Sequence record: OK272489.1
DNA: 49,897 bases
Direction: 5' to 3' (one strand)
Source: Escherichia phage JLBYU19
Shown: positions 5,617 to 17,805 of the stretch, one piece after another
Layout of the letters: the number at the start of each line of letters is the position of its first letter
How positions within the stretch are numbered: position 1 is the first letter of the stretch
Position numbers and translations under genes: made by a program
Notes under the pieces: model-generated
Databases searched by the model: none
The model's input: the letters and a program-made list of their open reading frames with translations, nothing else
Told to the model about the DNA's origin: nothing

Positions 5617-6732
5617 ATGAAAAATGTAAAAATTACAGATGAGCAATTCAAGATCGAACGGGCGGCAGGTAAGACATATAAACAGATCGCTCAAGAGTAC
5701 GGAATGAATGTGAGAAGCGTCGAGCGTCGCGCGGCGCGTCTTGCAAAGCAAGGACAGCTATCGACCATCGGAGCGCCTGGTTTTGGTGTTCATGGTGAGT
5801 CAGTAATGACTGACAAAGAAGGAAATATAATCCTCAAGTGGACCAAAACCAGCAAGGATAAAGAGCAATTAGAGGCATTGATGCGCGCAGCTATGGAGGC
5901 GTTTAGCGAGGAAGTGCCGCGATTAGATCCAGTTCCATTGCAGGAGCGTAATTATAATGAAACGCTTTCATTGTATCCGATCTTTGACATGCACTTAGGC
6001 GCTATGGCCCATAAGCACGAATGCGGCGAAAATTGGGATACTGCGACGGCAGAGCGCGTTATGAATAACTTTATCGACTATGCTTTGATGTGCGCGCCGG
6101 ACAGCGAAAAGGCTGTTATCCTGATTGGTGGCGATATGCTTCATAGCGATGGCCTGGAGGCTGTGACACCTGCAAGCGGTCACGTACTTGATCAAGATAG
6201 CCGATATGCAAAATTGGTTTACGTTGCAATCCGTGCAATGCGTCGCGCAATTAATAAAATGCTGTTAAAGCATAAACATGTTGAGGTGCAGATCGTAGAG
6301 GGGAATCACGACCAATCAGGAATGATTTGGCTACGCGCAGCGATGGCGGCAGCATATGAGAACGAGCCGCGCGTTTACGTTGATGTTTCTCCTCGCGTTG
6401 TTCACCACACGCAATACGGAAAAACTTTCCTTGCGTACCATCACGGGCACACAGTGCGTAAACCGGAGACTTTGCTAATGATGTGCGCGTCAGATTGGCG
6501 GGAGGACTTCGGGAACTCAAAAACGATGTATGCGCACGTAGGGCACTGGCATCACCAGACCGTAACAGAAACGTCGCTTGGCATCGTGGAGGTGCATAGC
6601 ACCCTGGCGGCAAAAGACGCATACGCCGCGCGAGGTGGCTGGAGATCTCGACGCCGTGCGGCGGTTATCATTTACGACAAAGAGCATGGAGAGGTCGGGC
6701 GATTTGTCCACTATCCAGAAATGATGAATTGA
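5617..6732 (+). CDS. metallophosphoesterase (calcineurin-like) with N-terminal HTH-like segment
   Basis: 371 aa from ATG 5617; motifs DMH, GGDMLHSDG, GNHD, HHGH, GHWHH; N-terminal TYKQIAQEYGMNVRSVERRAARL. Confidence 0.7.
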   Translation: MKNVKITDEQFKIERAAGKTYKQIAQEYGMNVRSVERRAARLAKQGQLSTIGAPGFGVHGESVMTDKEGNIILKWTKTSKDKEQLEALMRAAMEAFSEEVPRLDPVPLQERNYNETLSLYPIFDMHLGAMAHKHECGENWDTATAERVMNNFIDYALMCAPDSEKAVILIGGDMLHSDGLEAVTPASGHVLDQDSRYAKLVYVAIRAMRRAINKMLLKHKHVEVQIVEGNHDQSGMIWLRAAMAAAYENEPRVYVDVSPRVVHHTQYGKTFLAYHHGHTVRKPETLLMMCASDWREDFGNSKTMYAHVGHWHHQTVTETSLGIVEVHSTLAAKDAYAARGGWRSRRRAAVIIYDKEHGEVGRFVHYPEMMN

Positions 6733-6777
6733 TGAATTTTTATTTAAATCAATGACAAATTAAATCAAAAACTTGCA

Positions 6778-6808
6778 AAGGGGCGGCGTTTGTCGCCTCT
6801 TTTTTTTG
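6778..6808 (+). terminator. intrinsic terminator after phosphoesterase gene
   Basis: GC-rich imperfect hairpin GGGGCGGCG/CGCCTC followed by T8. Confidence 0.5.
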
Positions 6809-6878
6809 TTTAATTTTTTTACCATGTGCGTTTATCATGCGGTCAATATATTGACTTTAATTAATATGGAGAATAAAA

Positions 6879-7094
6879 ATGAAAGATTTTATTAACGCAG
6901 CTACCGCCGGATCTGGCGGTTCATCTATCGCAAGCGCCGCTACAGGGCAGTTAACCATTGCTATTGCCAGTTTTATTTTAATGGCTGCATTCGGTGCGTG
7001 GGGCGCTTACCTTCGCTGGCGTGATAGTAAAAAATTCCACGAGGCGATCGAAAAAGGTGATATTCAAAAAGCTATTGAGATCAGGGGCAAGTAA
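6879..7094 (+). CDS. holin (single TMD, pinholin-like)
   Basis: 71 aa; one hydrophobic helix [19 protein letters not shown], charged C-terminus; immediately precedes endolysin. Confidence 0.6.
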
Positions 7095-7585
7095 TGAGCA
7101 TAAAGAACAGGGTAGCGGCTGCGGCCTTTGGCGTTGCGGTTGCCTTGACTTCTCCACTTCTTGAAGAGATCGAAGGGGTAAGATACAAGCCATACAAAGA
7201 TATTGCGGGGGTATGGACGGTTTGCGCAGGAATCACCGGACCAGATGTTATCCTGGGGAAAACGTACACTAAAAAAGAGTGTGATGCTTTGTTGGCTAAA
7301 CATATCCAGGTTGCTAAAAAAGAAGTTGACAAGCAGGTTAAGGTTGACATTCCTGATAGTATGCGTGCAGCAATGTACTCATTCACTTACAATGCAGGTG
7401 TGGGAGCTTTCAGAAATTCAACAATGCTGAAACTCATCAACCAGGGGAAATTAAACGAGGCTTGCGATCAGCTTTATCGTTGGACGTATTACCATAACCC
7501 CAAAACAGGAAAGCGCGAGAAGTCTAAAGGCTTGCTTAACAGGCGCAAGGTCGAATACAAATATTGCACAATGGATCTTAAATGA
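7094..7585 (+). CDS. endolysin (lysozyme fold) with SAR-like N-terminus
   Basis: 163 aa; [10 protein letters not shown]...CAGIT lysozyme catalytic region; Gly/Ala-rich weakly hydrophobic N-terminus [14 protein letters not shown]; start overlaps holin stop. Confidence 0.75.
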
Positions 7586-7977
7586 TGAAGAAATTTTTAC
7601 TTACACCAATCGCAATGGCGGTGATCTTGTCTGGATGTTCAAGCGTTACGCCACTGACCGGATTAATCGGCAGTAAGCCGGAAATCACAGCGCAGGCTGG
7701 CGCGGAGAACGTGAAGCAGACAGTTGGCATTACAGCAAGGCAGGACGCCAGCACAAAACAGGAAACCACAATAAAGGAATCTGCGGTTGACAAGGTGGAC
7801 ACGTCCAGCAAGAAGGATTTCACAACATCAACCATTCAGGCCAATACCATCAAGGCAGACAAAATTCAGGTCGTGCAGGGTAATAACGGCAGATGGTACG
7901 ATCCAGTAATCATATGCGTGGTTGTGTTTCTTGTGCTGATTTGTCTTTACTGGATAGAAAAGAAAAAGGAGGCTTAA
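7582..7977 (+). CDS. unimolecular spanin (u-spanin)
   Basis: 131 aa; N-terminal lipoprotein signal with lipobox LSGC and C-terminal [19 protein letters not shown]; last gene of lysis cassette. Confidence 0.7.
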
Positions 7978-7995
7978 CGCCTCCTTTATTTTTAT
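7967..7995. terminator. bidirectional intrinsic terminator between convergent lysis and early genes
   Basis: AGGAGGC-ttaac-GCCTCCT hairpin flanked by A/T tracts on both sides. Confidence 0.6.
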
Positions 7996-8216
7996 GCGTC
8001 GGGCCACATATGGCTTTCGTTTGTTGGCTTGTTCGATTCGTCGTACTGCCTTACTTCAATGCTGCAAGTGTCGCCGTATAGTCCTGCAATCTTGCGCTCA
8101 TTTTCAACCGCCGATTGCTCACTCCAGCCTGAATCCTTATCGTAAACTGTCGGGATTTCAGAAGAAGATCCATTTGCATGATTGTATACGCGAACTACTA
8201 AAAACTTGCTGGACAT
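7992..8216 (-). CDS. hypothetical protein
   Basis: 74 aa from ATG 8216 (AAGGA RBS); downstream of junction-element promoter 8279. Confidence 0.5.
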   Translation of the reverse strand: MSSKFLVVRVYNHANGSSSEIPTVYDKDSGWSEQSAVENERKIAGLYGDTCSIEVRQYDESNKPTNESHMWPDA

Positions 8217-8278
8217 AATTTTTCCTTTTTGGTTGTTTCGTTTCGATGAAACAAATATACCCGACACTAGGCCGGGCG

Positions 8279-8298
8279 TTTTAACAAAAAATGCTATT
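8279..8298 (-). promoter_or_regulatory. conserved junction element (AATAGCATTTTTTGTTAAAA on minus strand)
   Basis: one mismatch to consensus; followed on minus strand by same GC dyad as copy at 5034 and TATATT. Confidence 0.6.
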
Positions 8299-8488
8299 CC
8301 ATACGCTTTACCGTAACCAGTAATACACCATCATCATTGCATAAAACATGTTCAGTGGTGCTAAAAGCGCGCATATCTGAATAAAGCAGCGTAAGTAACG
8401 CATGAATAAAATCCTCATGTGAGATTGAATTTACGGCGCAGTGCTTCAAGATCTTGTCTATTAGCTTTTGCCTGGAACAATTCATCAT
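8294..8488 (-). CDS. hypothetical protein
   Basis: 64 aa; GGGGAG RBS; stop inside junction element; overlaps next ORF by 74 nt so start uncertain. Confidence 0.35.
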   Translation of the reverse strand: MMNCSRQKLIDKILKHCAVNSISHEDFIHALLTLLYSDMRAFSTTEHVLCNDDGVLLVTVKRME

Positions 8489-8810
8489 CGCCCATCTCCC
8501 CTATTCTAGCCATATCCCTGATCCAGTCGTTGCGCATACCATCCAGGCTATACAATTCGAATCCGAAAGGCCGCTTTGACGATCCTTTGGACCAGTATTT
8601 TCCGCAGACTCCATCTATATAACCAGCCGTCATCATTCTTGCGCAAAATTCCTTAGATGCAAGGCTGGCGAACATTCGCGGCGTAAGTCCGGCGGCCCGT
8701 GCGAGCCGCTCACATTCTCTATGCTGATAGATAAATTTGGCTATGTGCTGCCTGTTAAACCAGTCGTATGACTCACACCATTTATACAGATCAAGCAAAA
8801 ACATAATCAT
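8415..8810 (-). CDS. hypothetical protein
   Basis: 131 aa; start overlaps stop of upstream gene (ATGA). Confidence 0.5.
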   Translation of the reverse strand: MIMFLLDLYKWCESYDWFNRQHIAKFIYQHRECERLARAAGLTPRMFASLASKEFCARMMTAGYIDGVCGKYWSKGSSKRPFGFELYSLDGMRNDWIRDMARIGEMGDDELFQAKANRQDLEALRRKFNLT

Positions 8811-10387
8811 CCCAGCAGTATTGGATTGACAAAAATAACACCATTAATCACACAAACATAATTTCTTTCTTCCAGCATTGGCAGCAAGTGCCCTTCTATC
8901 CTCTTCATTACGCCAGCCTGACCAACGAAAGGTTTTACCTTTCTCGCTGATTCGTACAGGGCGCGAATATTCAGGATCCCTTTGTTCGCCTTGCCGTGCC
9001 TCGTGATCAATTCAATCAATTTACCCATTTCAGCATCATCACCAGCATAACCAGAAGCATTGGCGGCGCTAATGTATGTTTTGCTCAATTCCTGAAACAT
9101 GATCAACGCCTCTTGCATTGTTTCCACGTCGATCTCTTTCGACTTCTGCGGGTATCCGGCAGGATTAAACCAGTTACGGATAACATGCAGGACGGAAGCA
9201 AGCCTGATCACCTGTTTATCCATTTTACCCAGCGCACCGCGTAACATTGTATGAGAATACTTTCCGCCGTCTGCAAGATGCGGTTCCATATCCTGGCGAG
9301 CAATGTTGAGCACTCGCATAGCTGAACGGCTTATTTTCAGCGATATATTTGATTCGCTCATGATGTTATGCACCAATTGATAATATTGGGCCTTCAATTC
9401 AGGATCCACCGCCTCATAGGTAGAATCACCATTTTCATCAATGAATGAGCGACGGCCTAAGAATGATTCCTCACGGACCAACAAAAAGCGCTCACTCACA
9501 CCGATACCGCGCGATCCAGCGTCCATGATTCCGCTTATCGTTTCATCCTGGGCTATAACGCTCATACATCCAAGCGCGCGAAAACTCATGTTATTGTCAG
9601 CATTAGCACGGGCAATTGATACGTGACCATTATCCCACGCCTTAAGCACTAGCTCGCTGTTAGTCTTCCTTTCGCTATTGGCATAGGTCAAGCCTAACAG
9701 GCTGTTAATACTTGTTGCTTCGTCAGATATTACGGCAAAGTTACCTTGCTTGTTGTTGATTTTCGCCAAGCCTTCTGGAGTTGTATCTGAAACAGGGAAA
9801 GTTATATCACACATCTTTTCCAGCTTCTCCTCCAGATCCTCTTTTTCCTGGTATAGAGATTCCATATCAGCGCCGGACCTTTCGCTTTTCATCTCCTTTG
9901 CAAGACCTGCCAACTTTGCCTGTATTTTCTTTCTTTCCTTGCGGCGTTGCTCGTTGATCTTCTCAACTTCCGCAATCATCGGAGCAATAGCCATGCTGTT
10001 GATCGCAGATTTACCAGTTGACGGCGGCTGGCTTGTAACGACGTAAAGCGCAGTCGGCTGATCTGTTCCGTGATAGTCAACCGTAAAGCGTCCAAGCATA
10101 GCGGCAGAAATGCAGCCGATAAAGTGCATGTAAGCCGATGATTCAGGGAATTGAACGGATCGCGCAATGCTGCGTGATAGCTTTCCGACAACATCAATAT
10201 CATTACCAAGAGAAATAACGGGGTAGCGATCGTGACCGCTATTTACATCCTTCACGTCGCCCCAAAAGCTGGACGACTGGCGATAGCCGTTAGCCTGAAT
10301 TGATACGCGAACTGGTGAAAGGTTCTGGCTTTCAGCCATAGCGATTATTTGCTGTGGAGTTAATTTGTTCGTTTCTAATGAAAACAT
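8807..10387 (-). CDS. putative replication-associated protein with P-loop-like motif
   Basis: 526 aa; PPSTGKSA P-loop-like segment, central charged coiled-coil; AAGGAG RBS; first gene after junction element 10441. Confidence 0.45.
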   Translation of the reverse strand: MFSLETNKLTPQQIIAMAESQNLSPVRVSIQANGYRQSSSFWGDVKDVNSGHDRYPVISLGNDIDVVGKLSRSIARSVQFPESSAYMHFIGCISAAMLGRFTVDYHGTDQPTALYVVTSQPPSTGKSAINSMAIAPMIAEVEKINEQRRKERKKIQAKLAGLAKEMKSERSGADMESLYQEKEDLEEKLEKMCDITFPVSDTTPEGLAKINNKQGNFAVISDEATSINSLLGLTYANSERKTNSELVLKAWDNGHVSIARANADNNMSFRALGCMSVIAQDETISGIMDAGSRGIGVSERFLLVREESFLGRRSFIDENGDSTYEAVDPELKAQYYQLVHNIMSESNISLKISRSAMRVLNIARQDMEPHLADGGKYSHTMLRGALGKMDKQVIRLASVLHVIRNWFNPAGYPQKSKEIDVETMQEALIMFQELSKTYISAANASGYAGDDAEMGKLIELITRHGKANKGILNIRALYESARKVKPFVGQAGVMKRIEGHLLPMLEERNYVCVINGVIFVNPILLG

Positions 10388-10440
10388 TCGTTAGCTTCTC
10401 CTTTGTGGGCCGTAAATTTTAACGGCCCAATACTACCCCG

Positions 10441-10460
10441 TTTTGTCAAAAAGTGCTATT
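10441..10460 (-). promoter_or_regulatory. conserved junction element (AATAGCACTTTTTGACAAAA on minus strand)
   Basis: TTGACA variant; TAAAAT 22 nt downstream inside GGGCCG/CGGCCC dyad; precedes 8807..10387. Confidence 0.6.
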
Positions 10461-10677
10461 TGATCCGCTCTATTGCAACCAGAAGTCGATCAGGCTGGAG
10501 GTCGCTGTAGCATTCTCCTGTAATCCCATCCTTAAACGTAAAGTAAAGCGCCTTATGATATGAAAAACCAATCAGCCAACCTACCGCCGTTTTTTTGATG
10601 GGCCTGACTATATCGCCAGGCTTGAAAGTCTTTGTGGTAGAATGCGTTACTTTGTAACGGTTCTCACTGTTTATCAC
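10456..10677 (-). CDS. hypothetical protein
   Basis: 73 aa; coupled to upstream ORF; stop inside junction element. Confidence 0.45.
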   Translation of the reverse strand: MINSENRYKVTHSTTKTFKPGDIVRPIKKTAVGWLIGFSYHKALYFTFKDGITGECYSDLQPDRLLVAIERIK

Positions 10678-11060
10678 AGATATTTGCCCTCAAACAGATA
10701 ACATCCGCCAGCAGAGAATCCGACCTCTTCACGGTACAGGTTCCAGCGGTCGCCGCACTCATCAAAAACATAACCCGCAACGCTTCCAAGCGGTCGCCCT
10801 TTCTCGATCTGGTATCGCTTGCCCTGCTTAAAGTGCTTTTTGCACGGCATGTTATGATCTACAAACGTGCAAAGAACGGTTTTTGTGTTAATGGTGCGGT
10901 AATCATCTCGGTTTGCTGGAAGCCAACGGCTACCCTTAACAAGCGTCTTAACCTGGAACTCTTCCATCTCGATCACATCATTACTTCCTGCAATATTCTG
11001 ATAAACCGTTTTAAAACGGCCTTTCATCAATACGTTGGTTTCATTACAGATAACATTCAT
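10674..11060 (-). CDS. hypothetical protein
   Basis: 128 aa; AAGGAG RBS; first ORF after junction element 11115. Confidence 0.5.
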   Translation of the reverse strand: MNVICNETNVLMKGRFKTVYQNIAGSNDVIEMEEFQVKTLVKGSRWLPANRDDYRTINTKTVLCTFVDHNMPCKKHFKQGKRYQIEKGRPLGSVAGYVFDECGDRWNLYREEVGFSAGGCYLFEGKYL

Positions 11061-11114
11061 GATTAGATCTCCTTTGTTTGTTCGATGTGATTATGCCAGG
11101 TTTTTACACCTGGC

Positions 11115-11134
11115 TTTTAACAAAAAGTGCTATT
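11115..11134 (-). promoter_or_regulatory. conserved junction element (minus strand)
   Basis: exact consensus on minus strand; stop of upstream gene embedded; CATAAT 22 nt downstream. Confidence 0.6.
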
Positions 11135-11816
11135 TTGAGTTTGACTCAAAGACGGCGCGAGCAAATCCGCGCGGAGTGAGGGAGCGTAGTTGCTTTGTTC
11201 TGGCAGACTTACCGCCTAAAAACTTCCAACCCCAAAAGAACATTACGCCCTCATCATTGGATAACGGCTTGCGTTCCGGTTCGGTAAATCCGTTGCCGCA
11301 CCAGATAGCCGTCCTTTTAGTGTAGCCATCCTTTAGCGGCATTTTGGGGTGAAATGACCCATCGGATTCGTCCAAGTAGTTACCAAAATCGCGCGGATTG
11401 AAATAAAAATCCGGCTTGCGCCATAGCGTTGATAGTCGGCCTACCGGATTCTCAGCCATCCAGGGAACACCGAAATGATTTCCGACTTTTTCAACCATGA
11501 TTGCATTTTGGAGCGCGATATGAATATCGTCTTCGCTGCGCACATGCTTACTTCCTGATTGGGCGAACATGGTGCAGTCTGGAAAGCCAAATACAATATC
11601 AGGTTTTGGAATATCCATCTTAATGACGTTTTCAATGAAATTTTCATCAATCCACATATTCACATAATGCAGATTTTCATGCTTCATTTTGATGAAATAT
11701 TCTCCGTGATTGCCTTCGTCAGCGTTAAAGCAATAGCATTGATAACCAGCCTTCGCATATTCAAGCAACATGATTCCAGATCCATCAAACATTGAGTAAG
11801 CAACTTTATTTCCCAT
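11130..11816 (-). CDS. C5-cytosine DNA methyltransferase-like protein (short form)
   Basis: 228 aa from ATG 11816; FDGSG (motif I-like), GFPDCTMFAQSG (PC motif IV-like), ENP (motif VI-like); no obvious target-recognition domain; start ambiguous (11816/11840/11876). Confidence 0.5.
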   Translation of the reverse strand: MGNKVAYSMFDGSGIMLLEYAKAGYQCYCFNADEGNHGEYFIKMKHENLHYVNMWIDENFIENVIKMDIPKPDIVFGFPDCTMFAQSGSKHVRSEDDIHIALQNAIMVEKVGNHFGVPWMAENPVGRLSTLWRKPDFYFNPRDFGNYLDESDGSFHPKMPLKDGYTKRTAIWCGNGFTEPERKPLSNDEGVMFFWGWKFLGGKSARTKQLRSLTPRGFARAVFESNSK

Positions 11817-12333
11817 GATTTTTATGATACCCCAATTCATTCTCGGCTTTACGTTTTGCGGCAACAGCATCTCCAAAACTGGAGAAACAACCTATATAAA
11901 TCCTACTTCCTCGCTTTCCGCTTCCAACCCTTACAATCCACTTGCCATGTTTATTTTTATGCACACCTGGCATGCCACTTGTATTGTTTTTCTGCTTTGA
12001 TGTGTTTCGCATATTTCCTTTGTGATCTTTTAACTCAAAGTTTATTGCTCTGTTATCAGTCGTAATGTGATTTACGTGATCAACCTCCATTCCTTCCGGT
12101 ATAGGCCCATAGTGCATTTCATAGCATATTCTATGAACTTTCAGGTTATAACGTTTTCCGTTTACAGTAAGTGCGGTTTCTAAATATCTGCCACCACTAC
12201 CCAAAGAGCCAACCTCATTACCAGCATTACAAGCATTCCATTGTTTAACTCTTGATTGGTGAATATCTTTTCTTTCTTTCCAGAACAGCTTTCCGGTTTC
12301 TGGATTGTATGTAAAGTAATCGTGCCAATTCAT
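11806..12333 (-). CDS. HNH homing endonuclease with AP2-type DNA-binding domain
   Basis: 175 aa; HNH motif EVDHVNHITTDNRAINFEL; C-terminal AP2-like GVHKNKHGKWIVRV...YIGCF; GAGGT RBS. Confidence 0.75.
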   Translation of the reverse strand: MNWHDYFTYNPETGKLFWKERKDIHQSRVKQWNACNAGNEVGSLGSGGRYLETALTVNGKRYNLKVHRICYEMHYGPIPEGMEVDHVNHITTDNRAINFELKDHKGNMRNTSKQKNNTSGMPGVHKNKHGKWIVRVGSGKRGSRIYIGCFSSFGDAVAAKRKAENELGYHKNHGK

Positions 12334-12341
12334 TCATTACC

Positions 12342-12566
12342 TCAAAACGGAAAACAGCGCGGACAACCAGGATCGAAATCGCATCCACAATCATTAACAA
12401 TCATATTGGGATCTGCAAATATTGCGCTTGATTCAAGATCCATATCCATATCACCTAAAGCCTCATCAAGAGTCTTAATTTTATATGCCACTTCAAGCGC
12501 CGCCTCTTTATTTAGTCCGGCATCTTCTGCCATTTGAAGGCGCTCAAAAAAACCGTCCTGACTCAT
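12342..12566 (-). CDS. hypothetical acidic Cys-cluster protein
   Basis: 74 aa, strongly acidic, C-terminal CGCDFDPGCPRC. Confidence 0.45.
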   Translation of the reverse strand: MSQDGFFERLQMAEDAGLNKEAALEVAYKIKTLDEALGDMDMDLESSAIFADPNMIVNDCGCDFDPGCPRCFPF

Positions 12567-12679
12567 CGCATAATCTCCTTAATAACAACCAAGATAATAG
12601 CCAGGCCAGCAGCAGTAACCAAAAAGCCAGCCGCGCCAATAATCGAATAAAAAAAGAAATCAATAGCTTTATCCATCAT
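12563..12679 (-). CDS. hypothetical small membrane protein (not in ORF track)
   Basis: 38 codons MMDKAIDFFFYSIIGAAGFLVTAAGLAIILVVIKEIMR; GAGGTGA RBS; stop overlaps next start (ATGA). Confidence 0.4.
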   Translation of the reverse strand: MMDKAIDFFFYSIIGAAGFLVTAAGLAIILVVIKEIMR

Positions 12680-12689
12680 TTTTCACCTC

Positions 12690-12714
12690 ATTTAAAAGGC
12701 GGCAAAACGCCGCC
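12690..12714 (-). terminator. intrinsic terminator (minus strand)
   Basis: GGCGGC-aaaa-CGCCGCC stem followed on minus strand by TTTTAAA. Confidence 0.5.
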
Positions 12715-12721
12715 AGATTAA

Positions 12722-12949
12722 TTAAAGAGCGCGCCAACTTTGAATATAGAAAGCGTTTTCTTCCAGTAATTCTTTTAACTGATCTTTATTGTATTTGCGC
12801 ACCTTACCGCCTGGATGGATACCAATAAGATAGCCGCCTTTGCCCTCGGTGATAGTGATTTGGCTAATTCCGCAGGACTTATCAAGTTTTACAGCCACGC
12901 GGTGATGAGCGTCAATAGTTGCCATAATGTTTAAAACTTTTGCTTTCAT
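12722..12949 (-). CDS. hypothetical protein
   Basis: 75 aa ORF followed by intrinsic terminator 12690-12714. Confidence 0.45.
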   Translation of the reverse strand: MKAKVLNIMATIDAHHRVAVKLDKSCGISQITITEGKGGYLIGIHPGGKVRKYNKDQLKELLEENAFYIQSWRAL

Positions 12950-13057
12950 TTAAATATCCTCAATTGAAATATGAATGACGTGGCGCTCTTTTTCCGTCGC
13001 CGCCGTAATGGTCATTTGCAACCGCTACCATCCAGGCATTTTTGAAAATAAATAGCC

Positions 13058-13270
13058 TCATTTCTTATTTTTTAGCTTAAATTTATGACCTGGAACACCA
13101 GCGCCAATATACCCATCGTTGTATTCCATTAAATAAAGGTGAAGACCATTATCTGAAATTAAATGAGGATCTTCTTTGATATTTCCCATTAGCGGGTATT
13201 CTTTTCCGCGCGTAAATTTCCAAATTGAGTTATAAGTTTCTACGCATTTAAGTTTTAATTGCTTTGCCAT
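13058..13270 (-). CDS. hypothetical protein
   Basis: 70 aa ORF in co-directional early array. Confidence 0.4.
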   Translation of the reverse strand: MAKQLKLKCVETYNSIWKFTRGKEYPLMGNIKEDPHLISDNGLHLYLMEYNDGYIGAGVPGHKFKLKNKK

Positions 13271-13551
13271 TATGCGATCCCAGTTACGTTAAAACTTACA
13301 GCCCTTGTTGCGCTAAATACATAAGCATCAACAGCGCCGCCAAATACACGAATTTTACCCTGGCCGTACTGCGCATTCATATTTCGCCAAACCGTTCTAT
13401 TAGAGCAGAATGCGCTACCAGTCTTAATAAGCGTATCCATCTCTTTTCTTAGATCGCGATAGTCAAGCCAGAATCTAAAGGCACGCTGTTTAATTCGCGC
13501 CGCCTTGATTTTTTCTCTTGCGCTATTGAAATCATTCTTTTCGTATGCCAT
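13270..13551 (-). CDS. hypothetical protein
   Basis: 93 aa, basic; single-nucleotide stop/start overlaps with neighbours. Confidence 0.45.
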   Translation of the reverse strand: MAYEKNDFNSAREKIKAARIKQRAFRFWLDYRDLRKEMDTLIKTGSAFCSNRTVWRNMNAQYGQGKIRVFGGAVDAYVFSATRAVSFNVTGIA

Positions 13552-13748
13552 TAAATGATCTCCATGTATGTTTCAAAGCCATTTAACTTGAACAGGCCGT
13601 TTTCACATTTGCGCACGTTCCAAGTTAGCCCTGAGTGGTACGCCTCCATATCATCAAGGTCAATGGTGATTTCAGCACCTTTCTTAAACAAGCCTTTTTC
13701 GTGAGACTTGTCGCGCTTAACAACTTTAACATCAACCTGATTTTCCAT
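13551..13748 (-). CDS. hypothetical protein
   Basis: 65 aa from ATG 13748 (GAGGA RBS), directly downstream of junction element 13805. Confidence 0.5.
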   Translation of the reverse strand: MENQVDVKVVKRDKSHEKGLFKKGAEITIDLDDMEAYHSGLTWNVRKCENGLFKLNGFETYMEII

Positions 13749-13804
13749 CTTTAAATCCTCGCTTGTTGTCGATGGGTGTAATATACCATTCAGGCGCACA
13801 TCGT

Positions 13805-13824
13805 TTTTAACAAAAAGTGCTATT
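13805..13824 (-). promoter_or_regulatory. conserved junction element (minus strand)
   Basis: exact consensus; TATATT 22 nt downstream; conserved leader shared with copies at 14311 and 15615. Confidence 0.6.
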
Positions 13825-14110
13825 CAACAACTTTTCCAGTTAAAGAGATAAGTTGCCTTGTAATCTTGTGGCGGCGATACTTACGCGCAACAACAGGAAG
13901 GCTTTCACCGCTTTGATGGCCAAAGCAGATCGGCAATTCACCTTCAAGGGAGCGGAAGCCACCAAATTCAAGATCCCGCACTGGCTTCGTGCGCCAGGCT
14001 TCAATAAATCCGCGCTCGTCACGAGTGATATAGCGGTATATGTTCGGGAGGGGCAATTGTATCCCCTCAAAATCCACGGTATCGGTATAGCTATAAAACT
14101 TAGAACTCAT
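13820..14110 (-). CDS. hypothetical protein
   Basis: 96 aa from ATG 14110; stop inside junction element; track N-terminal extension to 14161 rejected. Confidence 0.45.
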   Translation of the reverse strand: MSSKFYSYTDTVDFEGIQLPLPNIYRYITRDERGFIEAWRTKPVRDLEFGGFRSLEGELPICFGHQSGESLPVVARKYRRHKITRQLISLTGKVVE

Positions 14111-14252
14111 AGTCAACAACTCCAAACTCATTGACGATTTGGGCCTTGTAGAAGCCGCCATTTTTCGCCAGGTTGTAACAAGCGGCTACGGTTTCAAATT
14201 CGCGCGCTTCCGGCTGGCTGTTTTCGTGTTCCCAGGTAATCAGAGTAACCAT
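14100..14252 (-). CDS. hypothetical small protein (not in ORF track)
   Basis: 50 codons; GAGGA RBS; first ORF after junction element 14311; overlaps next start by 11 nt. Confidence 0.4.
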   Translation of the reverse strand: MVTLITWEHENSQPEAREFETVAACYNLAKNGGFYKAQIVNEFGVVDYEF

Positions 14253-14310
14253 TTTCAAATCCTCGCATTCGTTGTCGATGCGTGTAATGTACAGGAATGC
14301 GAGGATTGAG

Positions 14311-14330
14311 TTTTAACAAAAAGTGCTATT
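14311..14330 (-). promoter_or_regulatory. conserved junction element (minus strand)
   Basis: exact consensus; TACATT 22 nt downstream. Confidence 0.6.
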
Positions 14331-14593
14331 TAGTCCAGGAATTCGATTTCACGCTCTCCAGTTAACGGATCTACAAGCCAGAATCCGAGCGGTTCGTCGC
14401 GAACACCTTCATAGAATCCAAGCGCCGCCAGATCTTCACCTTTAACGAATACCAGGTTTCCGCTACGGCTTACGTGAGAAACGTTAACGATAACCGGAAA
14501 TGTGCGATCCTTAAATGCAGGCCGCAGGGCGTAACATCCGTTGTTGAGCAAACGTGCTTTGCGCTTAACTGGAATAGGTGCATTAATTTTCAT
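14330..14593 (-). CDS. hypothetical protein
   Basis: 87 aa; AAGGAG RBS; stop adjacent to junction element. Confidence 0.5.
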   Translation of the reverse strand: MKINAPIPVKRKARLLNNGCYALRPAFKDRTFPVIVNVSHVSRSGNLVFVKGEDLAALGFYEGVRDEPLGFWLVDPLTGEREIEFLD

Positions 14594-14605
14594 GGTTATT
14601 ACTCC

Positions 14606-14818
14606 TTATCGTAAAGATTTAAAGACGTATAGTTTATTGCGGTAACTATATATCCGCATTGTTATTTCTCGCAGTGCAATATATTCCTTCCTGTTTTCCG
14701 GCAGACTGGCGAGCAATAACAGGCAGTATTTATAAGCGCGGTCAAGATTCCTTTCCGTGCCCCTGCAATATCCCTTGTTGCGCCTGGAGCGGTACAGCCA
14801 TAACAATTTCTTGAACAT
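14606..14818 (-). CDS. hypothetical protein (uncertain)
   Basis: 70 aa Arg-rich ORF from ATG 14818, 2 nt after upstream stop; no clear RBS. Confidence 0.25.
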   Translation of the reverse strand: MFKKLLWLYRSRRNKGYCRGTERNLDRAYKYCLLLLASLPENRKEYIALREITMRIYSYRNKLYVFKSLR

Positions 14819-14819
14819 T

Positions 14820-15029
14820 TCAGATACGCCCATACAGATCACAGACTTCGTTGATAAAATTGCTTTGCGCCCCTTTGTTGTCACGCTCAAGAATTGCGCG
14901 GCATTCAAACTTATGATTATGCACGATGACTACAACCATGTTTTCAGGCATTGAGCGGTTATAGCGTTGCGCATCAGTGATTAAAACATCCATACCCATC
15001 TCATGTGCTTTCTTGATCACATCCAACAT
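14820..15029 (-). CDS. hypothetical protein (paralog of 15017..15283)
   Basis: 69 aa from ATG 15029 (AGGAG RBS); C-terminal NFINEVCDLYG resembles DFINDVCLLQ of neighbour. Confidence 0.45.
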   Translation of the reverse strand: MLDVIKKAHEMGMDVLITDAQRYNRSMPENMVVVIVHNHKFECRAILERDNKGAQSNFINEVCDLYGRI

Positions 15030-15283
15030 TTTTTCTTCTCCTGCAATAAGCAAACATCATTGATAAAATCAGCACGGCCCTTAATGTTGCTGATGTGGAA
15101 CGTCTTTTCAGCGTACAGGCCATCACCTTCAATCACGATCATTACGCGAGTCGGTTTATTCACGGTCGCACACGAAAAGAGTGGTCGCACCGGAAGAAAT
15201 TTAGTAGCCACACCCAGGTTAGCCCTGGCGGCCCTGCAAAATGCCTCCGCCAGATCCAAATCATTTTCGGTAATCACCGCCAT
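15017..15283 (-). CDS. hypothetical protein (paralog of 14820..15029)
   Basis: 88 aa; GAGGAG RBS. Confidence 0.45.
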   Translation of the reverse strand: MAVITENDLDLAEAFCRAARANLGVATKFLPVRPLFSCATVNKPTRVMIVIEGDGLYAEKTFHISNIKGRADFINDVCLLQEKKKCWM

Positions 15284-15555
15284 TACTTCTTGATCTCCTC
15301 ACTGATAAATTTCAGCACCTGACGCAAGAAAACCTCGTTGTTGATAGTCGCTGGCAATTCTTCTTTCACTTCTTGCGGCAGATAGATATTGCCGTGCCAG
15401 GTCAAGCAATCGTAGTTGATACGATAAGAGCAAAGCCACTCGCAATCGTTATCTGCTTCCCAAATGCAGAGTTGCAGAACATCGCCAAAATCTTCAACAG
15501 TCAGATCCAGACCGTGACGCTTAGCGAAATTGAAAGTGGTTTTGCTGATGTTCAT
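15283..15555 (-). CDS. hypothetical protein
   Basis: 90 aa; AGGAG RBS; first gene after junction element 15615. Confidence 0.5.
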   Translation of the reverse strand: MNISKTTFNFAKRHGLDLTVEDFGDVLQLCIWEADNDCEWLCSYRINYDCLTWHGNIYLPQEVKEELPATINNEVFLRQVLKFISEEIKK

Positions 15556-15614
15556 TGCTATCTCCTGAGCGGTTCGTTTCGATGTGTGTAATGTACCCGA
15601 TCAGACGGCCTGAG

Positions 15615-15634
15615 TTTTAACAAAAAGTGCTATT
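15615..15634 (-). promoter_or_regulatory. conserved junction element (minus strand)
   Basis: exact consensus; TACATT 22 nt downstream; faces away from AT-rich control region. Confidence 0.6.
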
Positions 15635-15663
15635 TGACGGTTAGCGCCAGGATTGTGATCGAA

Positions 15664-15753
15664 ATAATCAGAAGTAATCATTCGTAATCAAATCACGTCA
15701 AAATGATGATTGCCTTTGCAAATTTGATGAGAAAAGTAATCACGTTTAATCAT
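15664..15753. repeat. iteron-like short direct repeats (A/G)TAATCA
   Basis: ATAATCA 15665, GTAATCA 15674, GTAATCA 15684, GTAATCA 15736, TTAATCA 15747; first three spaced 9-10 bp. Confidence 0.5.
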
Positions 15754-15936
15754 TGGTTGCAGGGGAGATAGTGAAACCTTCCCCTCTTGCCTCACTTTTC
15801 CGCCTGGCTGTCAGTGGTTGTTGTCTTTTGTTCACCCCTGTTACCGATTTCAGGCGGCGTGTTTCCGCGCGGTTTTCCGGTGTAGCGAAAACGGAAAAAA
15901 CAAAAAAAATCCTATATAATACATTGAAAATAAAGA

Positions 15937-16075
15937 TTATTTATTTATATATATCTATAATGTTTTCTTTTTGTTCTCACTGTTACAGTGCTTTTTGTTG
16001 GGTGTGGTGTGGTTGTGTGTTGGTATATATGGATAGTTGCGCGCGCGGCGGATTGCATATGTATATATACTTTTT
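15937..16075. repeat. AT/GT-rich block homologous to 43926-44060
   Basis: TTATTTATTTAT(A/G)TAT... then TTGTTTT(C/T)TT.., GT-rich GGTGTGGTGTGG, ATGTATATATAC; same order in both copies. Confidence 0.55.
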
Positions 16076-16188
16076 CCGGCGGATTGCGTTAACAGCGTGA
16101 ACAGAAAAATAACAGCCCTGAAATCAACAACTTGCGCATGATTTTGTAGTTTTTCGATATTGGTAACGTTTTGAATACAACAAAAACA

Positions 16189-16216
16189 TTGACACGCACC
16201 AAATAGCTTTTATAAT
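16189..16216 (+). promoter_or_regulatory. sigma70-type promoter (consensus hexamers)
   Basis: TTGACA 16189-16194, 16-nt spacer, TATAAT 16211-16216; 32 nt upstream of ATG 16248. Confidence 0.6.
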
Positions 16217-16247
16217 GCGCCAACAGTCAACAACTGGAGGAAAGGAA

Positions 16248-16712
16248 ATGGAACAGAAGACCACTAAGGACTATTGCGATTGGCTTCGCGAGCTTGGTCG
16301 CCGCATGGCTAGTGGCGATATTGAAGAGTATAAAATGTCACTAATTGACCTGGCCGGAATGTTAAGCGGTGACGACTGCTACAAGATCACGCGCAGTTCA
16401 TCCTACAGCCGGACCATTATCAACCGCGTTCCAGAAGTAAGGGCCGCAGGTCGGGTAAGTATCAAGGTCGAGGAAACGGAAGATGATAAATTTTACGTTT
16501 TCCGCATGGTGCGCGAATCAAAAAGGAAAATCATCACACCCGAAGAATTGCCAGCAATCAAGGCAAGGGCGATCAAAAAGTTTGCCGATCGCTTACTGGC
16601 AGCAATCCCGAACATCGTTGACCTGGAAGGGGATAAACTGGCTGGAGCTTGTGAGGGCGTAAGCCGCTACCAGGATATGATCCGCGAAATCATCAAAGAG
16701 GAGGAGCAATAA
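16248..16712 (+). CDS. hypothetical early protein
   Basis: 154 aa from ATG 16248 (GGAGGAAAGG RBS), directly downstream of consensus sigma70-type promoter. Confidence 0.5.
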   Translation: MEQKTTKDYCDWLRELGRRMASGDIEEYKMSLIDLAGMLSGDDCYKITRSSSYSRTIINRVPEVRAAGRVSIKVEETEDDKFYVFRMVRESKRKIITPEELPAIKARAIKKFADRLLAAIPNIVDLEGDKLAGACEGVSRYQDMIREIIKEEEQ

Positions 16713-16837
16713 TGAAAAAGGCATTAATCGGCGTTTTGGCGGCAATGACACTCCTGAACGGCGGCGAAGGCACTAAGGTTATGGCACACGCTATGGTAAT
16801 GGCTGAATTTGAGGAAGTGAAAGATGAAAACAAATAA
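16712..16837 (+). CDS. hypothetical small protein (not in ORF track)
   Basis: 41 codons with hydrophobic N-terminus; GAGGAGG RBS. Confidence 0.3.
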   Translation: MKKALIGVLAAMTLLNGGEGTKVMAHAMVMAEFEEVKDENK

Positions 16838-17045
16838 GCGCGTCAAGCACAGGTTTACTGATAACCACGGCGACGCGATTGATGTATACAAGTTCGGCGA
16901 TCGCGTGTTTATTGATGGCACGTTTGAAGGTGGGCGTAGGCCGGATTTTAGGTCGATACTTACCGTTGACCAAGTGCGCAAGCTGGCAGATAAGTTAAAT
17001 GATCTGGCAGATGAAATAGAATACAAGCAAATCCATTTTAATTGA
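16824..17045 (+). CDS. hypothetical protein
   Basis: 73 aa; GAGGA RBS. Confidence 0.45.
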   Translation: MKTNKRVKHRFTDNHGDAIDVYKFGDRVFIDGTFEGGRRPDFRSILTVDQVRKLADKLNDLADEIEYKQIHFN

Positions 17046-17056
17046 TAGGTTTTATA

Positions 17057-17599
17057 ATGAAAAAATACACTTTCGAACTATGGGGCAAGAAGTACGAATT
17101 AATTACCAGCAAGCCGATTGTTATCGTTGACCTGGACGGCACACTATCGGACGGATCGCATCGTTTGCATTTGCTGCCAACTGAAAACTTGCACCTTACG
17201 GAATCGTGGAGCGAGTTTAACAGGGCCGCAGCAGGAGATTCACCGATTAAAAGCACGATCGCGATTGTTAACGGTTTGTGGGTGTCGGGATTTGCCATCG
17301 TCATCTTGACCGGACGCAGCGACGAGGTTCGCTACGAAACCTGCAAATGGTTGAATGAGAACGGCGTGAAGTTTGACGAAATCATCATGCGCCGCCAGGA
17401 TGACAACCGAAAGGATACGGTTATTAAAGAGGAAGCCTTGCGCGCTATCGGACTGGAAAACATTGTGTGCGCTTTTGATGATTCGCCGAACGTGGTTAAG
17501 CACTTCCGCAGCCTGGGAATCACAACCTATCAGGTCACGGAATACGACAAGCCGCACGCTCACATGCAATCTCACGGCGTGGAGGAGTTGCAGAAATGA
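17057..17599 (+). CDS. HAD-superfamily phosphatase (nucleotidase / polynucleotide 3-phosphatase-like)
   Basis: 180 aa from ATG 17057; DxDGT motif (VDLDGTLSDG) plus ILTGR and FDDS motifs. Confidence 0.65.
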   Translation: MKKYTFELWGKKYELITSKPIVIVDLDGTLSDGSHRLHLLPTENLHLTESWSEFNRAAAGDSPIKSTIAIVNGLWVSGFAIVILTGRSDEVRYETCKWLNENGVKFDEIIMRRQDDNRKDTVIKEEALRAIGLENIVCAFDDSPNVVKHFRSLGITTYQVTEYDKPHAHMQSHGVEELQK

Positions 17600-17805
17600 T
17601 CCTGAATGTAGCATATGCTAACCCTCGCGGCCGCAATATATACGGCTTTAAGGTTGGCGCGATGGTCAACGCCAGGATAAACGAAAAAGGCGTATTAGTT
17701 GTCAAGTCACCTAAAACTGGCATTGATATGCACATCAAGGAGAACGGCGGAAGATTGTTTATCAGGTCAATGTCTGGTCAAACGCTCGCAACTTTCACCA
17801 AATAG
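17596..17805 (+). CDS. hypothetical protein
   Basis: 69 aa; ATGA overlap with upstream gene; stop inside junction element. Confidence 0.45.
   Translation: MILNVAYANPRGRNIYGFKVGAMVNARINEKGVLVVKSPKTGIDMHIKENGGRLFIRSMSGQTLATFTK

What the first reader, a model, noticed from the sequence alone, without database searches (positions are those of the whole stretch)
11130..12333. Short C5-methyltransferase-like gene overlapping an HNH-AP2 endonuclease, plus a separate Dam-type methylase
The phage encodes a Dam-type N6-adenine methyltransferase (4042..4773) and a 228-aa protein with C5-cytosine-methyltransferase-like motifs I, IV and VI but no obvious target-recognition domain. The latter gene overlaps by 11 nt with an HNH-AP2 endonuclease gene. 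Two DNA modification functions plus a homing-type nuclease point to anti-restriction or genome-marking, and the short methyltransferase-like protein could have a non-canonical activity.
Basis: partly seen in the sequence, partly recalled or inferred. Interest (0 to 1): 0.5.

Follow-up and report, generated by a model that had tools for sequence, protein, structure and literature searches.

The report
Known short phage Dcm methyltransferase
A T1-like coliphage carries a compact cytosine-5 DNA methyltransferase gene with a mobile HNH homing-endonuclease gene wedged in front of it, plus a separate Dam methylase; all three are real, but they are known and already annotated kinds of phage genes, so the finding is ordinary.

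Summary
The window is a Warwickvirus (Drexlerviridae), about 99% identical to Escherichia phages JLBYU07 and JLBYU10.

- **Short methyltransferase (11130..11816, minus strand, 228 aa):** it belongs to a very large phage family of uniformly short (about 200-260 aa) C5-methyltransferase-like proteins (PHROG 757, E=8e-78). Pfam PF00145 is below threshold (E=0.09). Even so, motifs I (FDGSG), IV (PDC), VI (ENPV), a YTKRT block and an LTPRGFARAV block are conserved. The AlphaFold model matches DNMT3A/3B, M.HaeIII and a prophage C5-methyltransferase best. A roughly 30-residue segment replaces the usual target-recognition domain.
- **Published function:** the 711-bp dcm of a related phage (K42) raises 5mC in msDNA and triggers retron Ec86; its reported residue numbering fits the atuna-type allele, 47% identical to the window protein. 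Pantoea phage AAS23 gp52 (45% identical) was reported with Dcm-methylated virion DNA.
- **HNH gene (11806..12333):** this is a free-standing HNH_3 plus AP2-like homing endonuclease. It is a precise insertion, absent from most relatives. It takes over dcm's ribosome-binding site, and its last codons re-create dcm's ATG.
- **Dam (4042..4773):** confirmed (PF05869 E=1e-61, NPPY).
- **Site statistics:** CCWGG and GATC are the two most over-represented short palindromes, while 6-bp palindromes are strongly avoided.

Verdict: already known, low interest. The target sequence is still unmapped.

The parts
11130..11816 (-). Short Dcm-like C5-cytosine DNA methyltransferase gene (228 aa from the ATG at 11816; 'type B' allele with P-D-C in motif IV). 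Alternative upstream starts at 11840 (236 aa) and 11876 (TTG) lie inside the HNH gene.
   Evidence: PHROG 757 E=7.8e-78. 562 homologues of 215-245 aa. 1893 clusters at 50% identity, nearly all 200-260 aa. AF2 model pLDDT 83, best matched by DNMT3A/3B, M.HaeIII and 3g7u. Start position supported by the family N-termini and by A136. dN/dS 0.15 against A136.
11775..11789 (-). Motif I, FDGSG (AdoMet-binding F-x-G-x-G)
   Evidence: DGSG is invariant in A1. It aligns to motif I of M.HaeIII and E. coli Dcm. Coordinates checked.
11571..11582 (-). Motif IV, P-D-C-T, containing the presumed catalytic Cys81 (equivalent to C82 of phage K42 Dcm)
   Evidence: The Cys is invariant across 55 diverse family members. 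It aligns with the PC Cys of M.HaeIII and E. coli Dcm. K42 numbering was mapped through the atuna allele.
11442..11453 (-). Motif VI, E-N-P-V (ENV-type; Glu122 equivalent to E128 of K42 Dcm)
   Evidence: E122 and P124 are invariant and N123 is at least 90% conserved. In register with ENV of E. coli Dcm in hhalign.
11310..11324 (-). Motif VIII-like block YTKRT (K167/R168 equivalent to K175/K176 of K42 Dcm)
   Evidence: Y165, K167 and T169 are invariant; mapping.
11205..11294 (-). About 30-residue segment in the place of a target-recognition domain (NGFTEPERKPLSNDEGVMFFWGWKFLGGKS)
   Evidence: Lies between the motif VIII-like and motif IX-like blocks. The W-G-W..LGG part is invariant in A1. Model confidence here is lower, pLDDT 63-80.
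11151..11189 (-). Motif IX/X-like C-terminal block LRSLTPRGFARAV
   Evidence: The most conserved block of the family. Forms the C-terminal helices in the model.
11806..12333 (-). Free-standing HNH homing endonuclease gene (175 aa): HNH_3 domain (12007..12141) plus AP2-like DNA-binding domain (11833..11982)
   Evidence: PF13392 E=9.6e-15. PHROG 99 E=2.8e-51. D85, H86, N94, N98, N107 and N110 are invariant. PF00847 hits in homologues align to residues ~118-167.
11808..12339 (-). HNH cassette as an insertion, relative to the HNH-less Hanrivervirus record A136
   Evidence: blastn homology to A136 stops at 11807 and resumes at 12340, with only 16 nt between those points in A136. The junction sequences show that HNH uses the GAGG ribosome-binding site that precedes dcm in A136 and atuna. 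They also show that the HNH end (AAT CAT GGG AAA TAA) supplies dcm's ATG.
11217..12333 (-). Mosaic block (most of type-B dcm plus HNH) that replaces the type-A dcm allele of same-genus phages such as atuna
   Evidence: Identity to atuna is 97.5% up to 11216 and 97.3% from 12334, but only 71-75% or no match in between. The two Dcm alleles are 47% identical as proteins.
4042..4773 (+). Phage Dam-type N6-adenine DNA methyltransferase (243 aa; NPPY at 4402..4413)
   Evidence: PF05869 E=1e-61. TIGR01712 'phage_N6A_met' equivalog at 181 bits against a cutoff of 97. PHROG 111 E=5e-88.

Best explanation
The 228-aa gene encodes an active AdoMet-dependent DNA cytosine-5 methyltransferase of the widespread 'short phage Dcm' family.

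Architecture. It keeps the catalytic Rossmann core of C5-methyltransferases: motif I for AdoMet, the motif IV cysteine as nucleophile, the motif VI glutamate, and basic residues in a motif VIII-like block. A compact, highly conserved segment of about 30 residues plus a C-terminal LTPRGFARAV helix stand in for the large target-recognition domain.

Likely function (inferred). Expressed early from the minus-strand operon, it most likely methylates the inner cytosine of CCWGG on replicating phage DNA. Together with the phage Dam (GATC), this would give host-like methylation faster than the host enzymes can, protecting those sites from restriction. As a side effect it can betray the phage to retron Ec86/Eco1, which senses methylation of its msDNA.

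HNH gene. The upstream HNH(-AP2-like) gene is an independent selfish homing endonuclease. It inserted exactly between dcm's ribosome-binding site and its coding sequence. It now uses that site itself, and dcm is presumably translated by coupling from an ATG formed by the endonuclease's last codons.

Shown versus inferred. Shown here: family membership by sequence and fold, conservation of catalytic residues, purifying selection, the insertion anatomy and the site statistics. Taken from papers: 5mC formation, retron triggering, and Dcm-type methylation of virion DNA for homologues 45-47% identical. Inferred: activity of this allele, CCWGG specificity, translational coupling and the anti-restriction role.
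For: Family and fold:
- PHROG 757 E=7.8e-78.
- 562 close homologues, and 1893 clusters at 50% identity, almost all 200-260 aa. The short length is therefore the native architecture and not a truncation.
- Invariant across 55 diverse members: C81, E122, P124, Y165, K167, T169, W172, P215 and G217.
- Motifs I, IV and VI align in register with M.HaeIII and E. coli Dcm.
- 9 of 32 relatives hit PF00145 at E<=1; the best is 3.1e-6 at 27.3 bits, above the gathering score.
- dN/dS is 0.15 against A136.

Literature:
- The 711-bp dcm of Drexlerviridae phage K42 was disrupted in all four retron Ec86 escapers. Its expression raised 5mC in msDNA by LC-MS, and a C82A/E128A/K175A/K176A mutant was inactive.
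- The atuna-type allele has C, E, K, K at exactly those positions and is 47% identical to the window protein, which keeps C81, E122, K167 and R168.
- AAS23 gp52 is 45% identical. Its paper reports HHpred 99.7% to a Shigella C5-methyltransferase and Dam- plus Dcm-methylated virion DNA by restriction digest.

Site statistics:
- CCWGG (O/E 2.36) and GATC (1.63) rank first and third by O/E and have the two highest z-scores among the 48 palindromes of 4-5 bp.
- CCSGG is the most avoided (0.09). 6-bp palindromes have a median O/E of 0.18.

HNH as a mobile insertion.
Against: - For this protein alone, Pfam PF00145 is below threshold.
- NCBIfam finds nothing.
- HMM profiles of the family find no PDB methyltransferase at E<0.1.
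- hhalign against E. coli Dcm is not significant (E=0.057).
- Motif IV is P-D-C, not the canonical P-C.
- No experiment exists for this allele.
- The CCWGG target was assumed, not mapped, in the retron study.
- CCWGG enrichment could also come from host Dcm protection or from very-short-patch repair.
- The BASEL study found no simple link between methyltransferase genes and restriction resistance in Drexlerviridae.
Confidence: 0.8

Rival explanations
1. The protein is an active C5-methyltransferase, but its target is not simply double-stranded CCWGG. It might have a shorter or relaxed site, or a preference for hairpin or single-stranded DNA such as msDNA or replication intermediates, as could be expected from the minimal recognition segment.
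For: - Only about 30 residues stand in for a TRD.
- The retron study took CCWGG from E. coli Dcm. It showed only bulk 5mC and loss of defence when the CCTGG of the msDNA stem was mutated.
- That work was done in MG1655, which to my knowledge already has a CCWGG Dcm, yet msDNA 5mC was low without the phage enzyme.
- Two alleles only 47% identical circulate in one genus.
Against: - AAS23 DNA was reported as Dcm-type methylated by restriction digest.
- CCWGG is the most over-represented short palindrome in this genome and the second in AAS23, while CCSGG, GGWCC and CCGG are not protected.
- The recognition segment is almost invariant across the close family, which argues for one common target.
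Confidence: 0.15
2. The gene is a decayed or catalytically dead remnant of a C5-methyltransferase that lost its TRD. It would be kept, if at all, for a non-enzymatic role such as DNA binding or acting as a decoy.
For: - Pfam PF00145 is below threshold and covers only motifs I-IV.
- Motif IV is non-canonical, P-D-C.
- The protein is about 100 aa shorter than M.HhaI or M.HaeIII (327-330 aa; target lengths).
Against: - Length is uniform across 1893 clusters.
- The catalytic Cys and Glu are invariant.
- dN/dS is 0.15.
- The model is compact and confident.
- For a family member, activity was lost in a catalytic-residue mutant.
Confidence: 0.04
3. The methyltransferase and the overlapping HNH nuclease form a functional pair, a minimal restriction-modification or addiction-like module. 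The nuclease would cut DNA lacking the methyl mark, for example competing phages or the host.
For: - The genes overlap and are probably translationally coupled.
- The HNH gene travels with the type-B dcm allele in several Warwickvirus genomes.
Against: - The same dcm allele occurs without HNH: A136 and about 20 related records.
- Roughly 1490 phage records carry the methylase family, most without an adjacent HNH of this type.
- The nuclease family (HNH_3 plus AP2-like) is typical of free-standing homing endonucleases and occurs in many other contexts, including a second copy elsewhere in BEK12A.
- The insertion boundaries are those of a mobile cassette.
- Linkage with the flanking allele is what co-conversion during homing produces (established for T-even seg/mob endonucleases; own knowledge).
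Confidence: 0.04
4. The enzyme transfers something other than a methyl group (for example carboxymethyl from Cx-SAM), or acts on RNA like DNMT2, or is the first step of a cytosine hypermodification pathway.
For: - Motif IV is unusual.
Against: - LC-MS found 5mC for the K42 enzyme.
- No accessory modification genes turned up in the ORFs flanking dcm (10674..11060, 12342..12566) or in the ten other window ORFs scanned.
Confidence: 0.03

Closest known systems
Phage K42 (KarlJaspers-like, Drexlerviridae) Dcm, the reported trigger of retron Ec86/Eco1 (bioRxiv 10.1101/2023.08.16.553469)
   Same: Same protein family and the same genomic slot in T1-like phages. Same short architecture. The catalytic Cys, the Glu and the two basic residues are conserved: C82/E128/K175/K176 in K42 correspond to C81/E122/K167/R168 here.
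   Different: Judging by its reported length (711 bp) and residue numbering, K42 carries the 236-aa 'type A' allele with canonical P-P-C, as in atuna. The window protein is the 228-aa 'type B' allele with P-D-C, 47% identical to the atuna protein. The K42 sequence itself was not retrieved. No experiment on type B was found.
Pantoea phage AAS23 gp52 (PMC8004638)
   Same: 45% identical over the full length. Paired with a PF05869-type Dam in a Drexlerviridae genome. BLASTP finds no conserved domain, while HHpred gives 99.7% to a C5-methyltransferase. Virion DNA was reported as Dam- and Dcm-methylated.
   Different: Type-A-like P-P-C motif, a different host and no adjacent HNH gene.
Canonical bacterial C5-cytosine DNA methyltransferases (Pfam PF00145: M.HhaI, M.HaeIII, E. 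coli Dcm)
   Same: Order and register of motifs I, IV and VI, Rossmann-type fold, and the expected Cys-nucleophile chemistry.
   Different: About 100-240 residues shorter. There is no large TRD between motifs VIII and IX. Motif IV is P-D-C-T instead of P-C-Q. The C-terminal motifs IX/X are condensed into one block. The PF00145 score is below the gathering threshold.
DNMT3A/DNMT3B catalytic domain
   Different: Only 11-14% sequence identity, and a eukaryotic, regulated, CpG-specific enzyme. Whether the phage enzyme dimerises was not tested.
Phage T1-type Dam (Pfam PF05869 / TIGR01712)
   Same: The 243-aa protein at 4042..4773 passes both curated thresholds and has NPPY.
   Different: Nothing notable; GATC specificity is assumed from the family.
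Free-standing HNH-AP2 homing endonucleases of phages
   Same: HNH_3 catalytic core with invariant D-H...N...N. The C-terminal domain is homologous to AP2-positive relatives. Presence/absence is polymorphic among close genomes, the gene sits in an intergenic position, and the flanking allele is linked.
   Different: AP2 is not detected by Pfam in this protein itself. The cleavage site and homing have not been demonstrated.

Membership tests
Short phage Dcm-like methyltransferases (PHROG 757) | Significant full-length match to the family profile | tested here: met
   PHROG 757 E=7.8e-78, residues 3-227 against profile 14-219 of 247. 562 homologues at E<=1e-3, the top ones at 55-99% identity.
Short phage Dcm-like methyltransferases (PHROG 757) | Single-domain architecture of about 200-260 aa, with no large TRD | tested here: met
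   228 aa. Lengths of homologues and representatives cluster at 200-260 aa.
Short phage Dcm-like methyltransferases (PHROG 757) | Family-invariant residues (Cys of motif IV, Glu-x-Pro of motif VI, Y-x-K-x-T, W, P..G in the C-terminal block) | tested here: met
   All are present in the window protein: C81, E122, P124, Y165, K167, T169, W172, P215 and G217.
Short phage Dcm-like methyltransferases (PHROG 757) | 5mC-forming activity on DNA | not testable with these tools
   Reported for the phage K42 enzyme, whose numbering fits the allele 47% identical to this protein, and implied for AAS23 gp52, 45% identical. Not tested for this allele.
C5-cytosine DNA methyltransferases (Pfam PF00145) | Score at or above the Pfam gathering threshold | tested here: not met
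   12.6 bits against 22, E=0.092, covering motifs I-IV only. Among 32 relatives, 9 match at E<=1 and one passes at 27.3 bits.
C5-cytosine DNA methyltransferases (Pfam PF00145) | Motif I F-x-G-x-G (AdoMet binding) | tested here: met
   FDGSG; DGSG is invariant in A1; aligned to motif I of M.HaeIII and E. coli Dcm.
C5-cytosine DNA methylтransferases (Pfam PF00145) | Motif IV Pro-Cys dipeptide with the catalytic Cys | tested here: inconclusive
   The Cys is invariant and in register. It is preceded by Asp (P-D-C); other family members have P-S-C or the canonical P-P-C.
C5-cytosine DNA methyltransferases (Pfam PF00145) | Motif VI E-N-V | tested here: met
   E-N-P-V, with Glu and Pro invariant, in register with ENV of E. 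coli Dcm.
C5-cytosine DNA methyltransferases (Pfam PF00145) | Variable target-recognition domain between motifs VIII and IX | tested here: not met
   Only about 30 residues, and they are highly conserved rather than variable.
C5-cytosine DNA methyltransferases (Pfam PF00145) | Fold: class I methyltransferase core most similar to solved C5-methyltransferases | tested here: met
Phage Dam (PF05869 / TIGR01712) | Curated HMM thresholds and the (D/N)PPY catalytic motif | tested here: met
   PF05869 208 bits (cutoff 28.1). TIGR01712 181 bits (cutoff 97). NPPY at residues 121-124.
HNH-AP2 free-standing homing endonucleases | HNH catalytic domain | tested here: met
   PF13392 54.4 bits (cutoff 24.8). 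D85, H86, N94, N98, N107 and N110 are invariant among homologues.
HNH-AP2 free-standing homing endonucleases | AP2 DNA-binding domain | tested here: inconclusive
   No PF00847 hit for this protein, even at E<=10 on the C-terminal fragment. Full-length homologues have PF00847 hits (E 1e-5 to 6e-8; one reaches the gathering score) that align to residues ~118-167.
HNH-AP2 free-standing homing endonucleases | Presence/absence polymorphism at a fixed site among close relatives | tested here: met
   Present in 8-9 close records and absent from atuna, tonijn, tiwna, A136 and others. Boundaries are precise at 11808 and 12339.
HNH-AP2 free-standing homing endonucleases | Site-specific cleavage of the HNH-less allele, and homing | not testable with these tools
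   No data.

The most novel reading that the evidence does not exclude
The short phage Dcm family may be the smallest active DNA C5-methyltransferase architecture. It would read its site with a roughly 30-residue element, perhaps as a DNMT3-like dimer, and its true target has never been mapped. The P-D-C 'type B' allele seen here spreads together with an HNH homing cassette that overwrites the type-A allele. It could differ in specificity, or in its ability to trigger retron Ec86, so that homing-endonuclease-driven allele replacement swaps an immune-trigger gene between co-infecting T1-like phages.
Probability: 0.12. Interest if true: 0.5.

Novelty: already known. Interest (0 to 1): 0.2.

Why it matters
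For the scan, this closes the finding. The gene is a genuine member of a large, already annotated phage family whose function has been reported (5mC formation, retron Ec86 trigger), and the neighbouring nuclease is an ordinary homing element.

The residual value is modest.
- The family is missed by Pfam and NCBIfam thresholds, so automated pipelines label it inconsistently. Near-identical genomes call it 'hypothetical', 'DNA methyltransferase' or 'Dcm-like', and neighbouring ORFs carry unsupported names.
- Its sequence specificity, and how it recognises DNA without a TRD, have not been mapped.
- The junction shows neatly how a homing endonuclease can take over a host gene's ribosome-binding site and still restore that gene's start codon.

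Tried and rejected
- **Sequence searches against solved structures.** I ran the single protein and two family profiles. Only marginal, non-significant matches to M.HaeIII and DNMT2 appeared. Sequence-only methods do not establish the link to canonical C5-methyltransferases; fold comparison and relatives do.
- **hhalign of the family profile against E. coli Dcm**. The motifs were in register but E=0.057. A profile of canonical enzymes was not built.
- **The 74-aa upstream ORF as a specificity partner or fused TRD.** This was prompted by its GenBank name, 'putative cytosine DNA methylase'. It has no Pfam hit, its PHROG has unknown function, there is no similarity to the ORF upstream of dcm in Webervirus, and the longer family members (328-329 aa) carry an unrelated N-terminal extension. 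Rejected.
- **Type-B dcm as the explanation for the restriction resistance of BASEL phages Bas04 and Bas05.** PeterMerian has type B, but FritzSarasin was not among the type-B records at 90% identity or above. Not supported. Strong palindrome avoidance is a simpler explanation.
- **Choosing between the ATGs at 11840 and 11816 from substitution patterns**. The sequences are too similar to decide. I chose by homology of N-termini instead.
- **Other features.** No Rfam family reached its gathering score anywhere in the window. A promoter/terminator scan of 10300..14300 showed nothing relevant inside the finding.
- **Other HNH genes.** None turned up among the ten further window ORFs that I scanned.
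Full report
**What the window is.** The region 10400..12700 is 98.9% identical over its full length to Escherichia phages JLBYU07 and JLBYU10. It is 89-98% identical to a handful of other Warwickvirus genomes (Drexlerviridae, Tempevirinae). In those records the target gene is already called 'putative DNA cytosine methyltransferase', 'DNA methyltransferase' or 'Dcm-like C5 cytosine methyltransferase', and the upstream gene 'HNH/homing endonuclease'.

**Checking the observation.**
- On the minus strand there is an ORF ending at 11130. Possible starts are a TTG at 11876, an ATG at 11840 (236 aa) and an ATG at 11816 (228 aa).
- The HNH ORF runs from 12333 to 11806 (175 aa).
- GenBank annotators mostly used 11840 or a start further upstream. 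The 228-aa start corresponds to the N-terminus of nearly all homologues, and to the start in the HNH-less relative A136 (MKQKIAYSMFDGSG against MGNKVAYSMFDGSG).
- The Dam gene is unambiguous: PF05869 E=1e-61; the TIGR01712 equivalog is above its cutoff; NPPY is present.
- The HNH domain is clear (PF13392 E=9.6e-15). AP2 is not detected in this protein by Pfam. It is detected in more than twenty full-length homologues, and those hits align to residues ~118-167 here. The 'HNH-AP2' label is therefore reasonable by transitive homology.

The results are mixed.
- Pfam PF00145 scores 12.6 bits (E=0.092), below its gathering score and covering motifs I-IV only. NCBIfam gives nothing.
- PHROG 757 'DNA methyltransferase' gives E=7.8e-78 over the whole length.
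- The family is very large. There are 562 close homologues in the 5.8-billion-protein set, 1491 phage genome records and 1893 clusters at 50% identity (779 at E<=1e-10), almost all 200-260 aa. The short length is therefore the native architecture.
- Across 55 diverse members the invariant residues are the motif IV Cys, the motif VI Glu-x-Pro, a Y-x-K-x-T block, a Trp, and P..G in the C-terminal block.
- Sequence-only links to canonical enzymes are weak: M.HaeIII at E=0.05, no significant profile hit in the PDB, and hhalign against E. coli Dcm at E=0.057 with motifs I, IV and VI in register. Nine of 32 relatives touch PF00145, and one passes the threshold.
- The AlphaFold model is good (pLDDT 83, pTM 0.84). 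All of its top 24 Foldseek matches in the PDB are C5 DNA methyltransferases: DNMT3A/3B and M.HaeIII, E down to 4.5e-7.
- The gene is under purifying selection (dN/dS 0.15 against A136).

**What is published.**
- A preprint, later published as 'DNA methylation activates retron Ec86 filaments for antiphage defense' (that title appears in 28 papers of the library), studied escapers of retron Ec86 in the Drexlerviridae phage K42.
- All four escapers disrupt a 711-bp dcm gene. Dcm expression is toxic only with the retron and raises 5mC in msDNA by LC-MS. A C82A/E128A/K175A/K176A mutant is inactive. 34 of 35 Ec86-sensitive phages encode such a Dcm.
- The dcm allele of the same-genus phage atuna is 236 aa and has C, E, K, K at exactly positions 82, 128, 175 and 176. 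K42 therefore appears to carry this 'type A' allele.
- The window protein ('type B') is 47% identical to the atuna protein and retains the equivalents C81, E122, K167 and R168.
- Separately, Pantoea phage AAS23 gp52 is 45% identical to the window protein. It was reported to have no BLASTP conserved domain, an HHpred probability of 99.7% to a Shigella C5-methyltransferase, and virion DNA that behaves as Dam- and Dcm-methylated in restriction digests.
- The BASEL paper notes that Drexlerviridae abundantly encode N6-adenine and C5-cytosine methyltransferases. It found no simple link between them and restriction resistance.

**Target sequence.**
- The retron study assumed CCWGG by analogy with E. 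coli Dcm. It showed that mutating the CCTGG in the msDNA stem abolishes defence. The site was not mapped.
- As an indirect test I counted all palindromes in the window against a dinucleotide model. 6-bp palindromes are strongly avoided: the median O/E is 0.18, 21 of 64 are absent, GAATTC occurs twice and GATATC never.
- Among the 48 palindromes of 4-5 bp, CCWGG (124 observed against 52.5 expected, O/E 2.36, z=+9.9) and GATC (296 against 182, O/E 1.63, z=+8.5) have the two highest z-scores. CCSGG is the most avoided (4 against 45.5).
- The few non-avoided hexamers include AGATCT, CGATCG and TGATCA. AAS23 shows CCWGG as the second most enriched.
- This is what would be expected if GATC and CCWGG are the sites that are shielded. 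It cannot separate phage methylation from host methylation or from very-short-patch repair effects.

**The HNH gene is a mobile insertion.**
- Most Warwickvirus genomes match only the flanks of the query (about 50% coverage) and lack the gene.
- Against the Hanrivervirus-type record A136, which has the type-B dcm without HNH, homology stops at 11807 and resumes at 12340. Only 16 nt lie between those points in A136.
- In A136 and atuna, the 74-aa gene's stop is followed by GAGG, a short spacer and then the dcm ATG. In the window, the same GAGG is followed by the HNH ATG.
- The endonuclease's conserved last codons (AAT CAT GGG AAA TAA...NHGK*) contain the ATG from which dcm now starts. dcm is thus most likely translated by coupling to HNH (inference).
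- Against atuna, the whole block 11217..12333 (most of dcm plus HNH) is replaced, flanked by sequence 97% identical on both sides.
- The type-B dcm is 96% identical in nucleotides between the window and A136, while the longer stretch 10427..11807 that contains it averages 85%.
- Both patterns are what homing with co-conversion of flanking markers would leave (inference from the known behaviour of free-standing phage homing endonucleases).
- The nuclease's catalytic residues are intact.
- There is no sign that methylase and nuclease form a functional pair, because each is found abundantly without the other.

**Verdict.** The hint of a non-canonical activity has no support, and the gene family is already annotated and functionally described. 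Three things remain open: the mapped target site, how about 30 residues replace a TRD (the closest solved structures, DNMT3A/B, suggest dimerisation, which was not tested), and whether the P-D-C type-B allele behaves like type A. Novelty: already known. Interest: low.

Noticed in passing
window 1..49897: 6-bp palindromes are avoided to an extreme degree: median O/E 0.18 under a dinucleotide model, 21 of 64 absent, EcoRI site twice, EcoRV site never. In contrast, CCWGG (O/E 2.36) and GATC (1.63) have the two highest z-scores among 4-5-bp palindromes, and CCSGG is the most avoided (4 against 45 expected). This may explain why the related BASEL phage PeterMerian was reported as highly restriction-resistant.
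   Followed up: partly
window 11806..11816 and 12334..12345: The HNH cassette uses the GAGG ribosome-binding site that serves dcm in HNH-less phages. Its conserved C-terminal codons (...AAT CAT GGG AAA TAA) create the ATG from which dcm now starts. The first four dcm codons therefore differ from those of A136 (MGNK against MKQK).
   Followed up: yes
window 11217..12333 versus L003 (atuna): Two Dcm alleles only 47% identical (type A with P-P-C, 236 aa; type B with P-D-C, 228 aa) circulate within one phage genus. The switch point lies inside the conserved 3' end of dcm.
   Followed up: partly
window 12342..12566 (-) and 10674..11060 (-): GenBank product names for these neighbours in JLBYU07 look unsupported: 'putative cytosine DNA methylase' for the 74-aa ORF and 'putative phosphoglucomutase/phosphomannomutase' for the 128-aa ORF. 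Both match only PHROGs of unknown function, with no significant Pfam hit.
   Followed up: partly
L005 (BEK12A) 1265..1786: BEK12A carries a second homing endonuclease gene two genes downstream of dcm, at the position of the 128-aa gene. This part of the early region therefore seems to be a hot spot for homing-endonuclease insertions.
   Followed up: no
L004 and hits H89-H105: About 20 GenBank records named 'UNVERIFIED: Campylobacter phage A1xx' (host given as Campylobacter jejuni) are classified as Hanrivervirus, a T1-like Drexlerviridae genus. They carry the type-B dcm at 96-97% protein identity without the HNH gene. The host attribution looks doubtful.
   Followed up: no
window 12698..12714 (-): A GC-rich hairpin followed by a T-run (GGCGGCGTTTTGCCGCC TTTT) lies on the minus strand upstream of the small-gene cluster that leads into HNH and dcm. 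It is a possible intrinsic terminator or attenuator within the early operon.
   Followed up: no
P0075, P0096 (homologues, 328-329 aa): A few family members carry an N-terminal extension of about 100 residues, unrelated to the window's neighbouring genes. Its nature was not examined.
   Followed up: no
literature: The retron Ec86 study measured low msDNA 5mC without phage Dcm in MG1655. To my knowledge that strain has its own CCWGG Dcm. This leaves open whether the phage enzyme has a different substrate preference from the host enzyme.
   Followed up: no
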